Of a stretch of DNA of 64,000 nucleotides, positions 47,067-58,886 are shown in pieces. Origin of the DNA: Escherichia phage SD2; sequence record PQ821640. One strand, 5' to 3'. The stretch's first letter is position 1; each line of letters starts with the position of its first letter. Made by a program: the position numbers and the translations under genes. The notes under the pieces are model-generated. The model searched no databases, was not told the DNA's origin, and was given only the letters and a program-made list of their open reading frames with translations.

Positions 47067-47333
47067 TTACTCCGCAATCTGAGCCATGAATTCACGTAGT
47101 TCAGAAAAACCTCCTACGTGGGTTAGCTGTTCACCATCTTCCACAAAAATCTGAGGAAATGTGCGTGGTAGAACACCTGTTTTCTCTAAAACCAGATTCT
47201 GAATCTGATCTAAAGAATAGTCTTCATCTAAGGTAAGATATTTAAAATCCTGTTCACGCTGTTCTAGTAGAATCTTAGCGTTAGTGCAGAAAGGACAATT
47301 TGGTTTACCGTAGATAATAAAATTCATTTTCAC
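47067..47333 (-). CDS. glutaredoxin-like protein
   Basis: CPFC active-site motif in IIYGKPNCPFCTNAK. Confidence 0.85.
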   Translation of the reverse strand: MKMNFIIYGKPNCPFCTNAKILLEQREQDFKYLTLDEDYSLDQIQNLVLEKTGVLPRTFPQIFVEDGEQLTHVGGFSELREFMAQIAE

Positions 47334-48160
47334 TCCTTGTTTAAAAGTATAGTTAAAGTTCTTACAATACCGCTATCAACACTTCGCGGATTTAAAGTAG
47401 GATCTGTTTTTAAATAAGATGTTGCTGGTCTGACTGCTTTGGAATTATAGGTTGAAGCAGATACAGGATTAACTGTAACAGATAAATCTATAACAAGAAA
47501 TATCTTTCGTGCAAAATCATACCAAGAAATATAATCTGCACCTGCATAGTGTACAATTTTACTATTTACACCATCTTTTACAAGTTTAAAAATTGTTTCT
47601 GCAAGATCAGGTGCATAAGTAGGACATGACAAATGATCACATACTACATTAAATTCTTTTTGACCACCGTTGTAGCGTTCCAACATAGTTTTCAAAAAGT
47701 TATGTCCAAATTCACTATAAACAGAAGCTGTTCTGATAATAAGTGCTGTAGGACAAACTGTTTGTACTAAAGTTTCACCTAATTGTTTACTGTAACCGTA
47801 GGTGTTCAAGGGGTTTGTTTTACTATCTTCTGTGCCAGCAACATGCCCATCAAAAACATAGTCTGTTGAAATATGTACAAACTGTATCAGTAAATCATTA
47901 CATGCTTTGGCAATGTTTGTTGCACCGTATGCATTAACATTTATACAGGTGTTAACATCTTCTTCAGCTTTATCTACTGCCGTGTAAGCCGCACAATTCA
48001 CAACAACATCAGGCACATGCTGTACAAGACTATTCATAACATCTTTAAAGTTGGTAATGTCTACATCACTTGCTTCAATCAAAATAACATCTTCGGGCGC
48101 AACTTTTGCCAAAGACTGTCCTAATTGACCTTTTGAACCAAAGATTAAAAATTTTGTCAA
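47330..48160 (-). CDS. rmlD: dTDP-4-dehydrorhamnose reductase
   Basis: N-terminal Rossmann FGSKGQLG; last gene of an rmlB-A-C-D array; overlaps rmlC by 4 nt. Confidence 0.8.
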   Translation of the reverse strand: MTKFLIFGSKGQLGQSLAKVAPEDVILIEASDVDITNFKDVMNSLVQHVPDVVVNCAAYTAVDKAEEDVNTCINVNAYGATNIAKACNDLLIQFVHISTDYVFDGHVAGTEDSKTNPLNTYGYSKQLGETLVQTVCPTALIIRTASVYSEFGHNFLKTMLERYNGGQKEFNVVCDHLSCPTYAPDLAETIFKLVKDGVNSKIVHYAGADYISWYDFARKIFLVIDLSVTVNPVSASTYNSKAVRPATSYLKTDPTLNPRSVDSGIVRTLTILLNKE

Positions 48161-48711
48161 AATATGATCTCCTTTAGTGTTTTGGCTTGCTGATCTTTTT
48201 GTGACAAGATAGGTTTAAAATTAATATCATTAAAGATTAAATCAAAACCCCAATCAATATTGATATCTGGATCATTCCACGCAAGACTACACTCTGAAGT
48301 CGGATCGTAATATTCTGTACATTTATATTCAAAATCAGCAATGTCACTAATCACAACAAAGCCATGAGCGAAACCAGGAGGAATCCAAAATTGTGTTTTA
48401 TTCTTTTCAGATAAGAGAACACCTACCCATTCTCCAAATGTTGGACTACCAACCCTAATATCTACAGCAACATCATAAACTTCACCACGAACACAACGTA
48501 CTAACTTCCCTTGTGGGTTTTTCTTTTGAAAATGAAGCCCACGTAGAACTCCTCGAATAGAACGTGAGTGGTTATCCTGGACAAAGTTTTGTTTACCTAT
48601 GTATTGATCATATAAAGCCTGATTAAAACTTTCTAAGAAAAAGCCACGTTCATCTCCGTAAACGTCAGGTTGAATGATCAACAAATCTTCGATTTTTGTT
48701 GCTTGAATCAT
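48157..48711 (-). CDS. rmlC: dTDP-4-dehydrorhamnose 3,5-epimerase
   Basis: Cupin-type RmlC sequence; operon context. Confidence 0.85.
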   Translation of the reverse strand: MIQATKIEDLLIIQPDVYGDERGFFLESFNQALYDQYIGKQNFVQDNHSRSIRGVLRGLHFQKKNPQGKLVRCVRGEVYDVAVDIRVGSPTFGEWVGVLLSEKNKTQFWIPPGFAHGFVVISDIADFEYKCTEYYDPTSECSLAWNDPDINIDWGFDLIFNDINFKPILSQKDQQAKTLKEIIF

Positions 48712-48723
48712 TTAATTCCCCCT

Positions 48724-49593
48724 TTATTTTAATTTAAGTAAATACTTACCGTAGTCTGTTTTACTTAAAACCTCTCCAGAATTTTTTACAGAATCTAAAG
48801 TAATCCATTCATTTTTAAAAGCAATCTCTTCCAGGCATGCAACCTTCATACCTTGTTGCTTTTCTATTGCATGAACAAATTGAGATGCCTCCATAAGACT
48901 TTCATGTGTTCCTGTATCCAGCCAAGTGAAACCTCTTCCTAGTTTACAGACACGTAAAGTTTTTTCTTTCCAGTACATCTCATTTATATCTGTAATCTCT
49001 AACTCCCCTCTAGCAGAAGGTTTAACGCTCTTAGCTTTCTGTATAACAGAATTATCGTAAAAGTACAAGCCTGTGATTGCGTAGTTGCTTTTTGGTGCTT
49101 TTGGTTTTTCTTCAATACTCACCACTGTACCTTCAGAATCAAACTCAACAACACCAAATCTTTCAGGATCATTTACGTGATACCCAAAAATATTAGCTCC
49201 ACCATTCTTTTCAATATGTTCTTTAGCAGAATCTAAAATGCTACCAAAACTCTGACCAAAGAATAAATTATCACCTAGCACAAGTGCTACAGAATCTTCA
49301 CCAATAAAGTTCTCACCAATAATAAAGGCTTCTGCTAAACCTTTTGGGCTGTTCTGTACTGCATACTGTAGGGAAATACCAAAAGAAGAACCATCACCTA
49401 AAAGATTTACAAAATTAATTTGATCTTCTGGTGTTGTAATTATTAGTATTTCCCTAATTCCAGAAAGCATTAGGACAGAGAGTGGATAATAAATCATAGG
49501 CTTATCGTAAATTGGTAATAGTTGTTTACTAAACCCTTTAGTAACTGGGTAAAGTCTTGTTCCGCTACCACCTGCTAAGATAATACCTTTCAT
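48724..49593 (-). CDS. rmlA: glucose-1-phosphate thymidylyltransferase
   Basis: [18 protein letters not shown] signature N-terminus. Confidence 0.9.
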
Positions 49594-49601
49594 ACTCCTC
49601 C

Positions 49602-50591
49602 TTAAACTTTATTTTCCCACCACTCTTTGTTATCTACATACCAATCAATGGTTGAATAAAGTTTTTCTTCAAATGTGCCTTTAGCTTTCCACCCTAATTC
49701 CTTTTCAATCTTATAAGGATTCACTTCATATCTTAGATCATGCCCAGGTCTATCTGTAACCATCTCAATTAGGCTACAAGCATCTGTTTCAGATGGATAC
49801 ACCGCATCCATATAATCACAAATCATATAGATTACATCAATATTAGTTCTAGGGTTTCTGCTCCCAATATTATATGTTTCTCCAGATTTGCCTTTAGTTA
49901 CTACTAGGTGTAATGCTTCTGCGTGATCGTCAACGTATAACCAGTCTCTTACTTGAAGACCATTGCCATAAACAGGGATTGGTTTATTCATCAAGATATT
50001 TGTTATCGTTTTAGGTATTAGTTTTTCTGGATGATGATATGCTCCAAAATTATTTGAACAATTTGTTATAACTGTCGGAATACCATAAGTACGATGCCAC
50101 GCTCTTACCAAATGATCGCTTGCTGCCTTAGATGCAGCATATGGACTACTTGGCTTATAAGGATTCTGTTCTGTAAACGGATAATCCCCTTCTTCCAGAT
50201 CACCATACACTTCATCTGTTGAAATATGATGGAACATTTTAAGATTTGATTTATCTCCCATTAAACGAACAGCTTCTAGAAGATTAAATGTCCCAACAAT
50301 ATTTGAATTTATAAAAACACTCGGTGATGCTATTGAATTATCTACGTGACTTTCTGCTGCAAGATGCATTATATAATCTGGATTAACATCTGCCACAATC
50401 TTAGCAGTTAACTGCGCATTTGTCAAGTCAACACGACAAAACTTTACATTGGGTGTTTCTGATAAATTTCTAGGGTCTGAAGCGTAACCCCATTTATCTA
50501 TAACGTAAATATCATTTTTAGTATTTTTAGCCAGGAAACGAACTACCGCACTTCCAATAAAGCCTAAACCACCTGTTACTAAGTATTTCAT
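49602..50591 (-). CDS. rmlB: dTDP-glucose 4,6-dehydratase
   Basis: GGLGFIGS Rossmann motif and YAASKAASD catalytic YxxxK. Confidence 0.9.
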
Positions 50592-51470: not shown

Positions 51471-51657
51471 ACTTGGCTACACCATTAACTATAATATGAC
51501 CGCATGACATAACTCCTAGCCAATGATCACCATTCTTTTTTAAACGTTTGCCGTAAACATCACAGAAACCATTCTGTAATTCGGAAGCCTCATAAGAGGC
51601 TCCCTTTTCGAAAACGTCTTTGAAGTCAGAAATTAATCCAACACAAAGTAGTTTCAT
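51439..51657 (-). CDS. hypothetical protein
   Basis: 72 aa; TAATG coupling with nrdB stop. Confidence 0.55.
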   Translation of the reverse strand: MKLLCVGLISDFKDVFEKGASYEASELQNGFCDVYGKRLKKNGDHWLGVMSCGHIIVNGVAKFEIIKGEKDD

Positions 51658-52742
51658 TAGAAGTCTAACTCCTCGTCATCACTTACATCTTTATTTGCTG
51701 AATTCAGTTTGTAAGCTGTAATTTGGATCTCCTGTGCTGCTGCTTGAATTTGATCTGGATTTAACCAAACATCCATCCAAGGCAGTGGACTTTTCTTCGG
51801 TGCACGGAATTTGTGTTTCATTTTCAGTCTGCGATAGATAGGTGCAGCATTGAAGTAAACCCAAAGTTTGAACAACTCTGCGTTACCACCAACGATAACC
51901 CTTCCTTCACTAAACAGATAGTCACACCAATCTTCCTCTTGTCCAACTACCGTGTCAAGAATTTCTGTCAGAACGTCGATATTATCTTCGTATACTTTTC
52001 TCCAAACAGGATCTTTCAGCAGTGCATCAATAATAGCATAATCCATTTTAACGTGCAATAGTTCATCCAACATAATTTTTTGAATGAGTTTAGCTGCACC
52101 TACAAACAGTTGCTGCTCTGCTAAAGCAAATGTTGCAGCAAAAGAGGATATGAATTGAATGCCTTCCAGACCGATAAGTGCAATCATTCCTTTCAGGATC
52201 AGTAGACGAAGGTTATCATCCTTCTCAATCAGACCTAGAGCATATTTATGTCCTGCTTCTGCCAGATCACTCATTACCTCTTCAACTATACCCATCCTTT
52301 GGAAGATTCTTTCATTCTCCATAATCTGATCGATAACTTCATTTGGATTAGGGATACACTGACGAATAATTTCAGAATATGTCAAAGCGTGTAAAACTTC
52401 CATTTCCGATTGCTTCATCATCATTGCACATGCTTCGTTGTTGCTTAAAAATGGTGCAAACAAAGTGATAATTGATTTAGCAAGTGAATCATTTTCCCAT
52501 TGGAAAGATAGGTTTTTGATCATAACATCATAGTTGCTTTTAGAACAAGCTACGAAATCTTTTCGTGTCTGATCTAAGTCTACTTCGTTTTCATCCCAAT
52601 CTTGCTGTTTTTGTAGTTTGTACAGACGATGCATTTCTGGGTATGTTACATTAATAGAATCAAAAATACCTAACTGTTCTCCCAAAAATACAGGATAGAA
52701 ACCTTCTTTGTAAGTGTCGTTGTATAAATTAATCGCTGCCAT
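51657..52742 (-). CDS. nrdB: ribonucleotide reductase class Ia beta subunit
   Basis: Di-iron ligand region (EVLHALTYSEII) and overall R2-like sequence; GGAGG SD. Confidence 0.9.
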   Translation of the reverse strand: MAAINLYNDTYKEGFYPVFLGEQLGIFDSINVTYPEMHRLYKLQKQQDWDENEVDLDQTRKDFVACSKSNYDVMIKNLSFQWENDSLAKSIITLFAPFLSNNEACAMMMKQSEMEVLHALTYSEIIRQCIPNPNEVIDQIMENERIFQRMGIVEEVMSDLAEAGHKYALGLIEKDDNLRLLILKGMIALIGLEGIQFISSFAATFALAEQQLFVGAAKLIQKIMLDELLHVKMDYAIIDALLKDPVWRKVYEDNIDVLTEILDTVVGQEEDWCDYLFSEGRVIVGGNAELFKLWVYFNAAPIYRRLKMKHKFRAPKKSPLPWMDVWLNPDQIQAAAQEIQITAYKLNSANKDVSDDEELDF

Positions 52743-55377: not shown

Positions 55378-55638
55378 TTAATTGTGCATGTTTAGAACAT
55401 CTACATCATAACCGCCACGCATCTCATTATATAAGCCATTTGCGTATAGAAAACCTTCAAAATGATCTATACCTTCAAAACCTTTTGCCTTTGCTTTGCG
55501 GTCTGCTTCTTGTCTTTTTGGTGATAATCTTTTAGATGTATCAAGGATAACTGTTACATTGCAACCTAATGTTTCATCAAAATAGACTTCAATTTCACAG
55601 CCTTCATATTTATTACTTTCTGTCATTTGGCCTCTCAA
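55378..55638 (-). CDS. hypothetical protein
   Basis: 86 aa. Confidence 0.6.
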   Translation of the reverse strand: MRGQMTESNKYEGCEIEVYFDETLGCNVTVILDTSKRLSPKRQEADRKAKAKGFEGIDHFEGFLYANGLYNEMRGGYDVDVLNMHN

Positions 55639-56049
55639 TTAGAATTCAGAATCATCATCTCGTGATGGATCATGTTCATTTCCGAAGTCTTCCATTTTGA
55701 TATGAGAGCTACCCCAACCTGTAAAATCTTCTTCTCCAAAGTGCAAAATATCTACACCTTGATAGATTCGCTTATATTTATAGTCTTGTCGAACTGGGAA
55801 AGTATACAATGTAGTATTTGCAAACACCACACGTCGATTGTTGTTACTACGAATATTAACACCACGTTCTACTGTATAATGTCCATCGGTAGACATACCA
55901 AGCATTACTAATGCTGCTCGCAATGTGGTGTTATGATACTCGTGAGGAATTTTTCCTCCGTGCTTTTTAGCCATTTCTTTCCAGATCGGTGTAGCCTTAA
56001 TGGTAGACATACTTACGGTCGCCCAAATGGTTGTATTAATTAGTGACAT
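55639..56049 (-). CDS. hypothetical protein
   Basis: 136 aa. Confidence 0.6.
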   Translation of the reverse strand: MSLINTTIWATVSMSTIKATPIWKEMAKKHGGKIPHEYHNTTLRAALVMLGMSTDGHYTVERGVNIRSNNNRRVVFANTTLYTFPVRQDYKYKRIYQGVDILHFGEEDFTGWGSSHIKMEDFGNEHDPSRDDDSEF

Positions 56050-56146: not shown

Positions 56147-57118
56147 TCACCATTTTGTATGGTTCGTCAAAAGTTGACGATGTTGAATCCAACCACAGAA
56201 GTTTCCACTCCACAAACGATGTTTACGATCCATATGTGTAATACCTTCTTCCCAAGAGGAAGGGAACGGAGGAATATTAATACCACCTTTCTGTTGTTTT
56301 AATCCTGACAAATCCATTTCTTTCATTGGCGTTGCCTGGTGTTCAAACGGAGATGCATGTACCTTTTGTCCAGACAGCAAACGAGAATAGATATCCAATG
56401 CTTTATCTTTAGTATCATTCAACTTACGATAACTTACCTGAGCGCAACAAGAAGCTGAAATAGCTTTTGCTTCATCTTCTGTCAACATTTTCTCGTTGGA
56501 GAAGGTTTCACCCAAGAAATAACGGATCATACCAGTTTCTGGATCTCGATCACGATTAACGTAAGGTGTATGCCATTCCCCTGGGAAAAGAAGATATGGT
56601 TCAGAAGATTCATACAGTTTTTTAATTTCTTTAGCAAGAGCCTCAATAGTAGGATCTGCATCAGCATCTACGCGCAACCACAAGAAGTTTTCTAGCTCTG
56701 TAGTGGTTACTACAGTCTTCATACGCTGAAATGGTTCTAGTAGGCGGTTTGCAACCTGTTTATGATAACCAGCAAGGGCAAACTCTTCTGCAAAACGTGC
56801 AGCACTTAGCGCAGCCAAGTCCCACCATTCTTTTGCAGTGTAACCTGCATCAATCAGGGCATCGTGATCTGTGCCTTTATCTTGCATACCTGGTTGGTTA
56901 GCACCAAAACGATAAGGACGTGCTGGAGATTGCCGTACCATTTCAATCAGGGTTTTAACAGGGATAGCTCGACTTGATGCTGCATTACGAGAAAACAAAC
57001 GATGCGTCATCAATTCAGAGTGAATGATTCGAGGATATTCAAGTTCAAAGGTAACAATATCCTTACCTTCGGATGTTTGAGAGTGTGCAATAATTTTTGC
57101 TGAAATAGAATTTGTCAT
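56147..57118 (-). CDS. ThyX-family (flavin-dependent thymidylate synthase-like) protein with atypical THR motif
   Basis: VTFELEYPRIIHSELMTHRLFSRNAASSRA aligns with the ThyX FTF...RHRxxSxNxxSxR region, but the first Arg of RHR is Thr; 323 aa, longer than typical ThyX. Confidence 0.6.
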   Translation of the reverse strand: MTNSISAKIIAHSQTSEGKDIVTFELEYPRIIHSELMTHRLFSRNAASSRAIPVKTLIEMVRQSPARPYRFGANQPGMQDKGTDHDALIDAGYTAKEWWDLAALSAARFAEEFALAGYHKQVANRLLEPFQRMKTVVTTTELENFLWLRVDADADPTIEALAKEIKKLYESSEPYLLFPGEWHTPYVNRDRDPETGMIRYFLGETFSNEKMLTEDEAKAISASCCAQVSYRKLNDTKDKALDIYSRLLSGQKVHASPFEHQATPMKEMDLSGLKQQKGGINIPPFPSSWEEGITHMDRKHRLWSGNFCGWIQHRQLLTNHTKW

Positions 57119-57127
57119 TATTTCTCC

Positions 57128-57718
57128 TTAAGGTAGTAAAATACTTTCAATTTCTTCCCACTGATTATTTAAACCAGTGATAATTACATTAGGAAGTTTC
57201 TTTAACTCTTCCAAATATGGATCTTCGTAAATAGTGTTGAAATATATTTTCAACGTTTCATCTGGAAACAGGACAAGATTTTCAGCCCTATCGTCAATAG
57301 TTACATCGCAAGGTAATAAGTATTTTTCTTTTGTTGCGAAAAAACCATTACCAGATGTTCTACTAAAATCCACTTTATCTAAAGATCGTGTTACGTGTCT
57401 ATATTTAGAACTAAGGTGTCCACCCTTAGTGTGACTCGCTATAGATATATTAGCTCCATTTGCAATTATACGATGAACAACATCTGTACTATTAGGTACT
57501 ACTCCCATAGTATCATATAGATGTTGGTTATCCCAAAAAGAGTAAGGATCTACACCAAATTGCTTTTTAAAATCAGGGAAATATTTCGTAATATCATAGT
57601 GCACAGTTTTATGTGTCTTATCAAATTTGATATTAGATCTACTTACCGCATTTAACCAATTTAACCATTCTATATCCGCTGGAGCTATTACTAAATCCCA
57701 ATCACATACTAGACGCAT
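57128..57718 (-). CDS. putative HAD-type 5'(3')-deoxyribonucleotidase
   Basis: Track ORF trimmed to ATG at 57718 (AGGAG SD); DWD near the N-terminus (VCDWDLVIA) resembles HAD motif I; tentative. Confidence 0.45.
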   Translation of the reverse strand: MRLVCDWDLVIAPADIEWLNWLNAVSRSNIKFDKTHKTVHYDITKYFPDFKKQFGVDPYSFWDNQHLYDTMGVVPNSTDVVHRIIANGANISIASHTKGGHLSSKYRHVTRSLDKVDFSRTSGNGFFATKEKYLLPCDVTIDDRAENLVLFPDETLKIYFNTIYEDPYLEELKKLPNVIITGLNNQWEEIESILLP

Positions 57719-58265
57719 TATTTCTCCTGTTATAACATTTTCTACACATTGTTTCGTAAATGTCTTCTCCTCCAATAACAATCTGTTCTTTAGAGTCGAT
57801 AAGTCTAGCATTGAAAATAGCTTTTCTTCCACATTTACAAATGCTTTTCAATTCTGTAATTGAATCTGCTATGGCTAATAACCGTTCAGAACCTTCAAAC
57901 AATTCTGTAGCAAAATCTGTTTTAAGTCCATAGCAGAATACAGGAATATCGTAATTATCTACCACATCTCCAAGAATGTCAACCATATCTTTAGTTAGGA
58001 ATTGTGATTCATCCACAAATACTGCATCTACTGGATTTTCTTTAAGTTGTGTATAAATTTCCAGCATATCTTCTTTTGTTTTAACTGGTTTTGCTTCCTC
58101 TTTAATACCTATCCTGGAAGCAATAGCACCACCAGATCTGGTATCTAAAGCTGAAGTTAAAAGAAGAACTTTCATATTTCTTTCTTTATAGTTCCAAGCT
58201 GTTTGTAGAAGATGTGTGCTTTTACCACTGTTCATCGGACTATATCGGAAATAAAGTTTAGCCAT
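57702..58265 (-). CDS. tdk: thymidine kinase
   Basis: MAKLYFRYSPMNSGKSTHLLQTAWNYKERNM closely matches the E. coli Tdk N-terminus as I recall it; C-terminal CxxC pairs. Confidence 0.9.
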   Translation of the reverse strand: MAKLYFRYSPMNSGKSTHLLQTAWNYKERNMKVLLLTSALDTRSGGAIASRIGIKEEAKPVKTKEDMLEIYTQLKENPVDAVFVDESQFLTKDMVDILGDVVDNYDIPVFCYGLKTDFATELFEGSERLLAIADSITELKSICKCGRKAIFNARLIDSKEQIVIGGEDIYETMCRKCYNRRNNASSM

Positions 58266-58310: not shown

Positions 58311-58886
58311 TTATTTCTCTTCGTCAAGAAGAATTTTTACTATTTGTTTTCTTCGCTTACTTACTGTACTTTCTGGTGAAATTCCGCGCTTCGTTAGCCA
58401 ATTTTTATCCTTTTTAGACTGGCATAAAGCTATCGCTTCCTTCTCCGCTTTTGCTTCCCTGAATGTCATATCGTGCTTGTCAGCATAAGCTAGGATAGCG
58501 TTACACTGCTTACAAACTACACGCAGGTCGTCTTCTGTTACATACAATAGGCGTAAAACAAAACTTGGGATATCTTCATAACAGGTTAATGTACCTGCTG
58601 CATTAATATGGTCTACTTGAAAATCTTTCATACCTCCTGTATGTCCACACAATTCACATTGACAATTCCAAACCTGTTTCGGTTTGCCTGTTTTCTTATC
58701 TAAAACTACATTGCCATCTTTATCCAACCTATCGGCTTTAAATCGTACAGATTGGATCTTTTTTATCTTATTCGGGTGTCTCACCCATGCTTTCCTTAAG
58801 CAACCCCTTAAATATGTATAAAAGGCTGCTTGAGTTTTCCAAGGTGTTCCATCTCCCCAAATAACTTTAGGTTCTTTATTTTCCAA
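58311..58886 (-). CDS. HNH-family endonuclease
   Basis: CQCELCGH...FQVDHINAAG...CKQCN pattern. Confidence 0.6.
   Translation of the reverse strand: MENKEPKVIWGDGTPWKTQAAFYTYLRGCLRKAWVRHPNKIKKIQSVRFKADRLDKDGNVVLDKKTGKPKQVWNCQCELCGHTGGMKDFQVDHINAAGTLTCYEDIPSFVLRLLYVTEDDLRVVCKQCNAILAYADKHDMTFREAKAEKEAIALCQSKKDKNWLTKRGISPESTVSKRRKQIVKILLDEEK

What the first reader, a model, noticed from the sequence alone, without database searches (positions are those of the whole stretch)
56147..57118. ThyX-like protein with THR replacing the canonical RHR motif
The region aligning to the ThyX signature reads MTHRLFSRNAASSRA, so the first Arg of the RHR motif is Thr, and the protein is about 323 aa. Together with tdk, a nucleotidase-like gene, nrdAB and the rml operon this could mean a modified pyrimidine pathway rather than ordinary dTMP synthesis.
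Basis: partly seen in the sequence, partly recalled or inferred. Interest (0 to 1): 0.55.

Follow-up and report, generated by a model that had tools for sequence, protein, structure and literature searches.

The report
Rearranged phage flavin thymidylate synthase
This phage gene belongs to a large phage-only branch of the flavin-dependent thymidylate synthase (ThyX) family whose parts are in a different order and whose hallmark arginine has moved, but it most likely still makes ordinary thymidylate rather than a modified DNA base.

Summary
A 323-aa ORF on the minus strand (56147-57118) reads MTHRLFSRNAASSRA where ThyX has RHRx7SxRY.

The Thr is not a one-off change. It marks a large phage clade, present in 1034 of 50,697 phage records, including N4 gp30-like, rV5, ICP1 and PaP1 gp110 proteins. 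The window itself is a phi92-like E. coli myophage.

The clade keeps the ThyX residues S88, R90, R147, R174, H53 and S30. It replaces R78, E86 and Y91 with Thr, Ala/Ser and Ala, and it misses the TIGR02170 equivalog cut-off.

Profile-profile alignment shows a permuted order. ThyX 59-199 matches residues 19-174, and ThyX 20-61 (helices plus His53) matches residues 219-262. The few members with Arg/Lys at position 38 mostly lack the clade's Arg/Lys44, which suggests the positive charge moved. Inteins cluster at these motifs.

I do not find support for a modified-pyrimidine pathway:
- phi92-like phages are exceptionally sensitive to restriction;
- this is the only thymidylate synthase in the closest annotated genome;
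- relatives co-occur with dCMP deaminase;
- thymidine rises when PaP1 infects its host.

Best reading: a divergent, permuted but ordinary dTMP synthase (about 0.65). No member has been tested biochemically.

The parts
56147..57118 (-). ThyX-like CDS, 323 aa plus stop; ortholog of the 'putative thymidylate synthase' of phi92-like phages (PHB05 gp072), N4 gp30-like proteins, rV5 and PaP1 gp110
56597..57064 (-). Residues 19-174: ThyX core, collinear with T. maritima ThyX 59-199 (strand beta3, the RHR helix, the substrate loop, the helical domain and the R174 helix)
56966..57010 (-). Residues 37-51, MTHRLFSRNAASSRA: the clade's version of the RHRx7SxRY signature. T38 stands for R78, H39 for H79, R40 for R80, R44 for Y84, N45 for N85, A46 for E86, S48 for S88, R50 for R90 and A51 for Y91
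   Evidence: column counts T 113/118, H/S/R/A invariant, R/K44 113/118
56672..56674 (-). R149, invariant; equivalent of ThyX R174, the residue that activates dUMP
   Evidence: role of R174 from PMC8316439
56333..56464 (-). Residues 219-262: the relocated ThyX N-terminal module (helix 1, helix 2 and the His53 loop). S229 stands for S30, H254 for H53 and PFEH for PFEH. It lies after the core instead of before it
   Evidence: hmmsearch piece; hhalign E 2.4e-5 with a single sequence; prob 89-94%, E 2.3e-6 to 1e-7 profile against profile; sequence
56465..56596 (-). Residues 175-218: linker with three predicted strands and the clade-invariant H183-x-P185; no detectable counterpart in canonical ThyX
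56150..56332 (-). Residues 263-323: clade-specific C-terminal tail with invariant R314 (GWIQHRQL); no detectable counterpart in canonical ThyX and no detectable similarity to the N-terminal half
57128..57832 (-). Upstream neighbour, a weak NT5C-like 5'(3')-deoxyribonucleotidase candidate (PHB05 annotates a shorter 196-aa product)
   Evidence: Pfam NT5C 22.9 bits, below the 24.8 cut-off
57702..58265 (-). Thymidine kinase (tdk)
   Evidence: Pfam TK 185 bits
53105..55366 (-). Class Ia ribonucleotide reductase large subunit (nrdA); nrdB is at 51657-52742

Best explanation
The gene encodes a member of a large, essentially phage-restricted clade of the ThyX (Thy1) superfamily. I propose it is a working flavin-dependent thymidylate synthase: it binds FAD, is reduced by NAD(P)H, takes the methylene from CH2-THF and converts dUMP to dTMP. 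That would supply thymidylate to a 37% G+C phage growing in a 51% G+C host, and to the phage's own dTDP-rhamnose pathway.

Compared with canonical ThyX the chain is circularly permuted. The core (ThyX 59-199) comes first. The helix-helix-His53 module that normally precedes it (ThyX 20-61) follows at residues 219-262. Clade-specific linker and tail segments complete the fold.

The residues that bind and activate uracil and bind the phosphate are kept: S88, R90, R147 and R174 correspond to S48, R50, R125 and R149. So are the flavin/folate-side residues S30 and H53, as S229 and H254. Three canonical residues on the deoxyribose/flavin-N1 side are replaced by small ones: R78 by T38, E86 by A/S46 and Y91 by A51. 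Their roles are inferred to be taken over by clade-specific residues, most probably R/K44 for the R78 guanidinium, with R314, H183 and R30 as other candidates.

What is shown: homology, fold, permuted order, residue conservation, the position 38/44 covariation, gene context and phyletic distribution. What is inferred: FAD binding, oligomeric state, catalytic activity, dUMP as substrate and which residue replaces R78 or Y91.
For: Homology and fold:
- Pfam Thy1 above threshold.

Permutation:
- Three non-collinear HMMER pieces against T. maritima ThyX.
- hhalign of a canonical profile against the clade profile: 59-199 to 19-174 (E 2e-7) and 20-61 to 219-262 (E 2.3e-6; 1e-7 against the C-terminal half alone).

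Conservation across 118 representatives at 37-63% identity:
- H39, S48, R50, A51, R149, S229, H254 and R314 are invariant.
- R125 is found in 117/118, N144 in 117/118 and T38 in 113/118.

Charge relocation: a basic residue at position 38 goes with a non-basic residue at 44 in 3 of 4 sequences, against 2 of 114 otherwise (Fisher p 1.5e-4). The four are only 35-43% identical to each other.

Inteins: they interrupt clade members at six or more sites, all at these motifs (after H33, R40, F42, S48, near R149, after H254). That is typical of functionally critical sites.

Biological context:
- No ThyA or second ThyX in the window or in the whole PHB05 genome.
- Window G+C is 37%.
- The gene sits among tdk, nrdA and nrdB.
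- In N4-like roseophages this gene and dCMP deaminase appear together (PMC2784036, PMC11934525).
- PaP1 gp110, a 51%-identical ortholog with the same motif, is highly expressed while thymidine rises in infected cells (PMC5377924).
- phi92-like phages are exceptionally sensitive to restriction (PMC8594841).
Against: - No member of the clade has been tested biochemically or genetically in any paper I could find.
- The protein scores 35.8 bits against the 87.9-bit cut-off of the TIGR02170 thyX equivalog.
- R78 is described as the conserved Arg that stabilises FADH- at N1/C2=O (PMC11940539). Its PolB equivalent H-bonds the ribose O3' (PMC5003785).
- Y91A slows the T. maritima enzyme by more than 100-fold (PMC8316439). 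The equivalent Y99A nearly kills PolB.
- All three residues around the sugar 3'-OH are missing here, so substrate or chemistry could differ.
- The PaP1 thymidine rise is correlational.
- Restriction sensitivity excludes protective hypermodification but not every subtle change.
- I could not inspect model coordinates, so the proposed stand-in residues are untested in 3D.
Confidence: 0.65

Rival explanations
1. Neofunctionalised ThyX-type enzyme. The rewired pocket uses a different nucleotide (dCMP, UMP, a di- or triphosphate, or uracil within a polynucleotide), or it releases a different product such as 5-hydroxymethyl-dUMP formed by hydration of the exocyclic methylene intermediate. Either would feed a modified pyrimidine.
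For: - R78, E86 and Y91, the residues around the flavin N1 and the sugar 3'-OH, are all replaced by small residues clade-wide (roles).
- The TIGR02170 equivalog cut-off is not met.
- The phage encodes RmlA-D, and the near-identical phage PHB05 has four annotated glycosyltransferases.
Against: - The uracil-recognising and activating R50 and R149 are invariant, and no acidic or amide residue suggests cytosine recognition.
- The clade is found in more than 1000 phages, including N4-like phages, rV5, ICP1 and PaP1, which lack the rml genes.
- Vequintavirinae and phi92-like phages are exceptionally restriction-sensitive.
- The gene co-occurs with dCMP deaminase.
- Unmodified thymidine rises in PaP1 infection.
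- There is no other thymidylate synthase to make the dTTP that the phage DNA and RmlA need.
Confidence: 0.12
2. A thymidylate synthase with impaired or altered redox chemistry that depends on a partner. Without R78 and Y91 the protein may need a phage or host factor (a reductase, flavodoxin or another subunit), or it may form a non-tetrameric assembly in which the C-terminal module acts in cis.
For: - About 150 extra residues with invariant H183, P185 and R314 have no ThyX counterpart.
- The His53 module is placed differently in the chain.
- In canonical ThyX, H53 comes from another subunit ('monomer-3', PMC11940539).
Against: - No conserved neighbouring partner gene: the ORF downstream here and the one downstream of PaP1 gp110 are unrelated.
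- Neighbourhoods differ between clade members.
- The AF2 monomer is compact and confident on its own, with pTM 0.92.
Confidence: 0.13
3. A catalytically dead ThyX relic with a binding or regulatory role, for example sequestering dUMP or FAD.
For: - Loss of two residues regarded as conserved and catalytically important.
- Weak scores against the curated models.
Against: - Eleven invariant and about 33 nearly invariant positions across sequences only 37-63% identical, including every uracil- and phosphate-binding Arg/Ser and H53.
- Inteins home to these motifs.
- dN/dS of 0.18 is reported for the Rhodovirinae thyX genes (PMC11934525).
- The gene is retained in more than 1000 lytic phage genomes next to nrd genes.
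Confidence: 0.05

Closest known systems
Canonical flavin-dependent thymidylate synthase ThyX (T. maritima TM0449, M. tuberculosis Rv2754c, PBCV-1 A674R, H. pylori; Pfam PF02511, TIGR02170, EC 2.1.1.148)
   Same: - Same H-R...S-x-R signature core, the same R147, R174 and N169 equivalents, and the same S30/H53/PFEH module.
- Same genomic role as the sole thymidylate synthase beside nrd and tdk genes.
   Different: - The chain order is permuted, with the 20-61 module after the core.
- It is about 100 residues longer, with a clade-specific linker and tail.
- R78 is Thr, E86 is Ala/Ser and Y91 is Ala.
- There is a conserved R/K at the Y84 position.
- It falls below the TIGR02170 equivalog cut-off.
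- T. maritima ThyX does not even find it by tblastn.
- Its activity has never been measured.
PolB (S. cacaoi), a ThyX paralog that methylates UMP as well as dUMP (PDB 4p5a; PMC5003785)
   Different: - PolB keeps the canonical order and keeps R86, E94 and Y99, the equivalents of R78, E86 and Y91. Its Y99A mutant is nearly dead.
- Its specificity rests on Loop 1 and Loop 2 tyrosines, for which I found no counterpart here.
- PolB works in antibiotic biosynthesis, not phage DNA replication.
Uncharacterised orthologs annotated as thymidylate synthase: N4 gp30 and N4-like roseophage proteins, rV5 'FAD-dependent thymidylate synthase', Vibrio phage ICP1, Pseudomonas phage PaP1 gp110 and PAK_P-type phages
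   Same: Full-length homologs at 33-53% identity covering both halves. PaP1 gp110 has the identical ELMTHRLFSRNAASSRAIPV motif. They are members of the same clade.
   Different: Nothing essential differs. These phages lack the rml cluster, which shows that the enzyme is not tied to it.
ThyA-type pyrimidine hydroxymethylases and methylases of phages with modified DNA (T4 gp42, SPO1 gp29, the ViI and M6 dUMP hydroxymethylases)
   Same: They also transfer one carbon from CH2-THF to C5 of a pyrimidine nucleotide before replication (PMC8989533).
   Different: They have an unrelated fold and chemistry. No ThyA homolog exists in the window or in the closest annotated genome, PHB05. No flavin-dependent equivalent of these enzymes appeared in the papers I read.

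Membership tests
ThyX / Thy1 superfamily (Pfam PF02511) | Match to the Thy1 profile above the gathering score | tested here: met
   37 bits against 24.8, but only profile positions 59-186 of 191, on residues 22-170
ThyX / Thy1 superfamily (Pfam PF02511) | ThyX three-dimensional fold | tested here: met
   [not shown]
ThyX / Thy1 superfamily (Pfam PF02511) | Canonical order of elements: N-terminal helices and His53 before strand beta3 and the RHR helix | tested here: not met
   ThyX 20-61 aligns to residues 219-262 and ThyX 59-199 to residues 19-174. The order is permuted.
Flavin-dependent thymidylate synthase proper (TIGR02170 equivalog, EC 2.1.1.148) | Score above the curated equivalog cut-off | tested here: not met
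   35.8 bits against 87.9
Flavin-dependent thymidylate synthase proper (TIGR02170 equivalog, EC 2.1.1.148) | RHRx7S signature (Myllykallio 2002, as used in PMC2826268) | tested here: not met
   The sequence is T-H-R-x7-S. The first Arg is Thr in 113 of 118 clade representatives; H and S are invariant; the second Arg is R in 93 and K in 8 of 118.
Flavin-dependent thymidylate synthase proper (TIGR02170 equivalog, EC 2.1.1.148) | Conserved Tyr after the S-x-R (Tm Y91), proposed general acid and partner of H53 | tested here: not met
   A51 is invariant. Role of Y91 from PMC8316439 and PMC11940539.
Flavin-dependent thymidylate synthase proper (TIGR02170 equivalog, EC 2.1.1.148) | Residues binding and activating dUMP: S88, R90, R147, R174 | tested here: met
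   S48, R50 and R149 are invariant and R125 is present in 117 of 118
Flavin-dependent thymidylate synthase proper (TIGR02170 equivalog, EC 2.1.1.148) | Flavin/folate-side residues S30 and H53 | tested here: met
   S229 and H254 are invariant within an aligned AQVSY...H-x-SPFEH module, but at a permuted position
Flavin-dependent thymidylate synthase proper (TIGR02170 equivalog, EC 2.1.1.148) | FAD-containing homotetramer with active sites built from three subunits | not testable with these tools
   Only a monomer model without coordinates or ligands was available
Flavin-dependent thymidylate synthase proper (TIGR02170 equivalog, EC 2.1.1.148) | NAD(P)H- and CH2-THF-dependent conversion of dUMP to dTMP; complementation of a thyA mutant | not testable with these tools
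   No experimental report for any clade member was found. There is only correlational data for PaP1.
Flavin-dependent thymidylate synthase proper (TIGR02170 equivalog, EC 2.1.1.148) | Complementary distribution with ThyA (one thymidylate synthase per genome) | tested here: met
   No ThyA or second ThyX by tblastn in the window or across the whole PHB05 genome, and none annotated. The general anticorrelation in jumbo phages is reported in PMC7824862.
PolB-type UMP/dUMP methylase | Canonical ThyX active site plus Tyr99 and the Loop 1/Loop 2 tyrosines that confer UMP use | tested here: not met
   [not shown]
ThyA-type pyrimidine hydroxymethylase (modified-base pathway) | Homology to the ThyA/dCMP-hydroxymethylase fold | tested here: not met
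   No Pfam hit other than Thy1. tblastn with E. coli ThyA gives only noise, E above 7.

The most novel reading that the evidence does not exclude
The clade is not a plain dTMP synthase. Its rewired sugar and flavin-N1 side (R78 to T, E86 to A/S, Y91 to A) gives it a different substrate or product, for example 5-hydroxymethyl-dUMP, a methylated cytidylate or uridylate, or uracil in a polynucleotide. That would make it the first flavin-dependent route to a non-canonical pyrimidine in phages, present in more than 1000 sequenced phage genomes.
Probability: 0.12. Interest if true: 0.75.

Novelty: new variant of a known kind. Interest (0 to 1): 0.4.

Why it matters
ThyX is a drug target and a textbook case of flavin-mediated methylene transfer. 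R78 and Y91 are treated as conserved catalytic residues.

A clade found in about 2% of sequenced phage genomes lacks both residues and has its parts in a different order, yet looks fully under selection. It includes the model phages N4-like, rV5, ICP1 and PaP1. This would show either that these residues are dispensable or replaceable (here probably by a relocated Arg/Lys) or that the annotation 'thymidylate synthase' on more than a thousand phage genes is not quite right. Either outcome can be tested with one recombinant protein.

For this window, the practical result is that the gene gives no reason to expect modified DNA.

Tried and rejected
- **Single-sequence AF2 model:** useless, pLDDT 34. 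I replaced it with the alignment-based model.
- **phmmer of the single protein against PDB sequences:** no hit even at E 10. Only the clade profile finds ThyX.
- **C-terminal half as a degenerate second Thy1 repeat, with 'QHR' as a second RHR:** hhalign of the N-terminal half against the C-terminal half finds nothing, prob 0.2%. Rejected.
- **520-680 aa clade members as tandem duplications, possible intermediates of the permutation:** rejected. They carry inteins (Pfam Intein_splicing plus HNH) with clean C...HN|S/C junctions.
- **A conserved partner gene downstream:** the 136-aa ORF here and PaP1 gp111 are unrelated.
- **afdb50 fold library:** not available. BFVD added only other 'thymidylate synthase' labels.
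- **The search for related loci with the alignment:** failed. With the single protein it gave only 4 MAG contigs, so I could not test for cellular genomes that rely on this clade alone.
- **Papers with RHR mutagenesis and the folate site (PMC2258874, PMC3465422):** not held.
- **Literature searches for any biochemical work on this clade, or for a described ThyX permutation:** nothing found.
- **Model coordinates:** I could not read them, so I made no 3D check of which residue sits where R78 or Y91 would be.

Full report
**1. What is there**

The interval 56147-57118 holds one long ORF, on the minus strand, of 323 aa. The + strand reading is full of stops.

The window is a phi92-like E. coli myophage (Justusliebigvirus, Stephanstirmvirinae). 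A 4-kb stretch around the gene is 99.0-99.7% identical to phages W22, PHB05, muut and others, where the gene is annotated 'putative thymidylate synthase'.

- thymidine kinase (Pfam TK, 185 bits);
- a weak NT5C-like ORF (22.9 bits, below the 24.8 cut-off);
- nrdA and nrdB;
- a complete RmlB/A/C/D set.

**2. Family assignment**

The protein passes Pfam Thy1 (37 bits against 24.8), but only over residues 22-170 and profile positions 59-186. It matches PHROG 85. It fails the curated thyX equivalog TIGR02170, with 35.8 bits against 87.9. The single sequence finds nothing among PDB sequences.

The family is very large:
- More than 7400 hits among 90% clusters.
- 4969 representatives of 50% clusters at E<=1e-3, of which 1493 are at E<=1e-30.
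- Full-length tblastn matches in 1034 of 50,697 phage records. These include rV5-like phages, Vibrio phage ICP1, PAK_P/PaP1-type Pseudomonas phages, N4-like phages ('N4 gp30-like'), Caulobacter, Stenotrophomonas, Achromobacter and Flavobacterium phages.

A pattern scan of one genome per bacterial species, which finds close relatives only, gave 4 hits, all on MAG contigs. As far as I could see, the clade is viral.

**3. The Thr is a clade signature, and it is not the only change**

I aligned 118 representatives that are 37-63% identical to the query (A1). The counts are:
- T38 is found in 113 of 118.
- H39, S48, R50 and A51 are invariant.
- R40 is R in 93 and K in 8.
- Position 44 is R or K in 113.
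- N45 is found in 115.

Mapped on T. maritima ThyX:

| ThyX residue | Phage residue |
|---|---|
| R78 | T38 |
| H79 | H39 |
| R80 | R40 |
| Y84 | R/K44 |
| N85 | N45 |
| E86 | A/S46 |
| S88 | S48 |
| R90 | R50 |
| Y91 | A51 |
| R147 | R125 |
| N169 | N144 |
| R174 | R149 |

The uracil- and phosphate-binding set is therefore intact. Three residues on the flavin-N1 and deoxyribose-3'-OH side are replaced by small ones.

The literature gives these three residues real roles:
- R78 is 'a conserved arginine' whose guanidinium points at N1/C2=O of FADH- (PMC11940539).
- The PolB equivalents of R78 and E86 H-bond the ribose O3' (PMC5003785).
- Y91 H-bonds H53 and is a proposed general acid. [quoted passage not shown]
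- The equivalent Y99A nearly abolishes PolB activity.

**4. Permuted architecture**

A profile of A1 searched against PDB sequences hits only ThyX entries, and in three non-collinear pieces:
- clade 213-256 to chain residues 31-72 (helix 1, helix 2 and the H53 'TPFEH' loop);
- clade 24-53 to chain residues 73-102 (the RHR...S...R region);
- clade 131-174 to chain residues 168-211 (the R174 helix).

hhalign with T. maritima ThyX alone gives 61-199 to 21-174 (E 1.1e-5) and 21-60 to 220-261 (E 2.4e-5).

I then built a profile of 120 canonical ThyX sequences. My recalled T. maritima sequence proved 100% identical to the deposited chain. With that profile:
- ThyX 59-199 aligns to 19-174 (probability 93.6%, E 2e-7).
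- ThyX 20-61 aligns to 219-262 (89%, E 2.3e-6; 94.3% and E 1e-7 against the C-terminal half alone).

The relocated module carries the invariant S229, which corresponds to S30 (it H-bonds flavin C4=O), and the invariant H254, which corresponds to H53.

Residues 175-218 (invariant H183-x-P185) and 263-323 (invariant R314) have no detectable ThyX counterpart. The two halves are not repeats of each other.

I could not read model coordinates, so the permutation rests on sequence profiles and predicted secondary structure, not on a 3D superposition. I found no paper describing it.

**5. Two further observations bear on function**

First, covariation. Four of the 118 sequences have a basic residue at position 38, as canonical ThyX does. 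Three of those four have a non-basic residue at position 44 (C, N, F). Only 2 of the other 114 lack R/K44 (Fisher p 1.5e-4). The four are only 35-43% identical to each other, so this is not one recent lineage. This is what one expects if R/K44 supplies the charge that R78 supplies in ordinary ThyX. No phylogenetic correction was made.

Second, inteins. The 520-680 aa members are not duplications; they contain inteins. The inteins sit after H33, R40, F42, S48, near R149 and after H254, that is, exactly in the conserved motifs of both halves. Inteins typically occupy functionally critical sites of replication and nucleotide-metabolism enzymes. This argues that both the THR...SSRA loop and the relocated His module are parts of a working active site.

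**6. Biological context**

- *Sole thymidylate synthase.* The closest annotated genome, PHB05, has no other thymidylate synthase, DHFR or dCMP deaminase annotated. tblastn with E. coli ThyA and T. maritima ThyX finds nothing but noise in the window or in that genome.
- *Demand for thymidylate.* The window is 37% G+C. RmlA also consumes dTTP.
- *Link to dUMP supply.* In N4-like roseophages the gene appears together with dCMP deaminase, and dN/dS is 0.18 (PMC2784036, PMC11934525).
- *Experimental correlate.* PaP1 gp110 is a 51%-identical full-length ortholog with the identical motif. It is highly expressed during infection while thymidine rises, and PaP1 also encodes dCMP deaminase (PMC5377924). 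This evidence is correlational.
- *Restriction sensitivity.* Vequintavirinae and phi92-like phages are 'exceptionally susceptible' to type I, II and III restriction-modification systems 'despite a putative dTDP glycosylation machinery' (PMC8594841). This argues against hypermodified thymine.
- *Independence from rml.* The rml genes are specific to the phi92-like group, whereas the enzyme is spread over many unrelated phage groups. The two are not a unit.

**7. Verdict**

The identification as ThyX-like is right. The suggested modified-pyrimidine pathway is not supported.

The most likely reading (about 0.65) is a divergent, circularly permuted, phage-specific flavin-dependent thymidylate synthase that still converts dUMP to dTMP, with the R78 charge relocated to R/K44.

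The protein is a member of the Thy1 superfamily. Three features used to define ThyX proper were tested and not met: the RHR motif, Tyr91 and the equivalog score. The canonical element order is also not met. I therefore file it as a new variant of a known kind rather than as a plain ThyX.

No member has been assayed. An altered substrate or product (about 0.12), dependence on a partner or a different assembly (about 0.13) and a non-catalytic role (about 0.05) remain open.

I rate the interest as moderate. It is a concrete, testable puzzle for ThyX enzymology and for the annotation of more than 1000 phage genes, but probably not a new pathway.

Noticed in passing
Clade members P0133, P0139, P0141, P0142, P0162, P0203, P0208, P0229, P0234, P0239, P0247, P0248, P0249, P0255, P0261; locus L007 5663-7579: Many homologs of 520-680 aa carry inteins, some with an HNH endonuclease. 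They sit at six or more different sites, all in the conserved motifs (after H33, R40, F42, S48, near R149, after H254). This is an intein hot spot in one small enzyme.
   Followed up: partly
window 47330-50591 (-); PHB05 locus L002 47083-49805 and L003 1-454: The window has a complete dTDP-L-rhamnose pathway (RmlB, A, C, D). The near-identical phage PHB05 has four annotated glycosyltransferases next to the primase/helicase. The target of this 'dTDP glycosylation machinery' is unknown, and the phages remain restriction-sensitive (PMC8594841).
   Followed up: partly
one search hits H9-H12 (MG065639, MG065645, MG065656, MG065689): Four records named 'Campylobacter phage' with host C. jejuni, all about 146 kb, are 99.4% identical to this E. 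coli phage over the 4-kb query. They are probably mislabelled or contaminant genomes.
   Followed up: no
window 58311-58886 (-): A 191-aa ORF between tdk and the next gene is annotated as an HNH endonuclease in related phages. It has no Pfam hit at E<=0.001. It may be a free-standing homing endonuclease inside the nucleotide-metabolism cluster.
   Followed up: no
window 57128-57832 (-) and 57702-58265 (-): From its first GTG, the NT5C-like ORF overlaps the 3' end of tdk by 131 bases. PHB05 annotates a shorter 196-aa product. The Pfam NT5C match is below threshold (22.9 against 24.8), so the nucleotidase assignment is tentative.
   Followed up: partly
window 55378-56049 (-): Two small ORFs (136 and 86 aa) between the ThyX-like gene and nrdA have no Pfam match. 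The first is unrelated to the ORF that follows the PaP1 ortholog.
   Followed up: partly
PHB05 loci L001-L003 (outside or partly inside the window): The phage genome is rich in unusual accessory genes: Sir2, a DprA-like protein, PRPP synthetase plus nicotinamide phosphoribosyltransferase, TerC and tellurite-resistance proteins, an HslV-like peptidase, RNA ligase, and both aerobic and anaerobic ribonucleotide reductases.
   Followed up: no
locus L005 (metagenome contig, T4-like context): A clade member that keeps RHR (P0222, RHRALSRNVSSSRA) lies in a T4-like gene neighbourhood with RegA, dUTPase, DsbA and a family B DNA polymerase. This position is where such phages might be expected to have td (ThyA), so it may be a case of non-orthologous replacement.
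   Followed up: no
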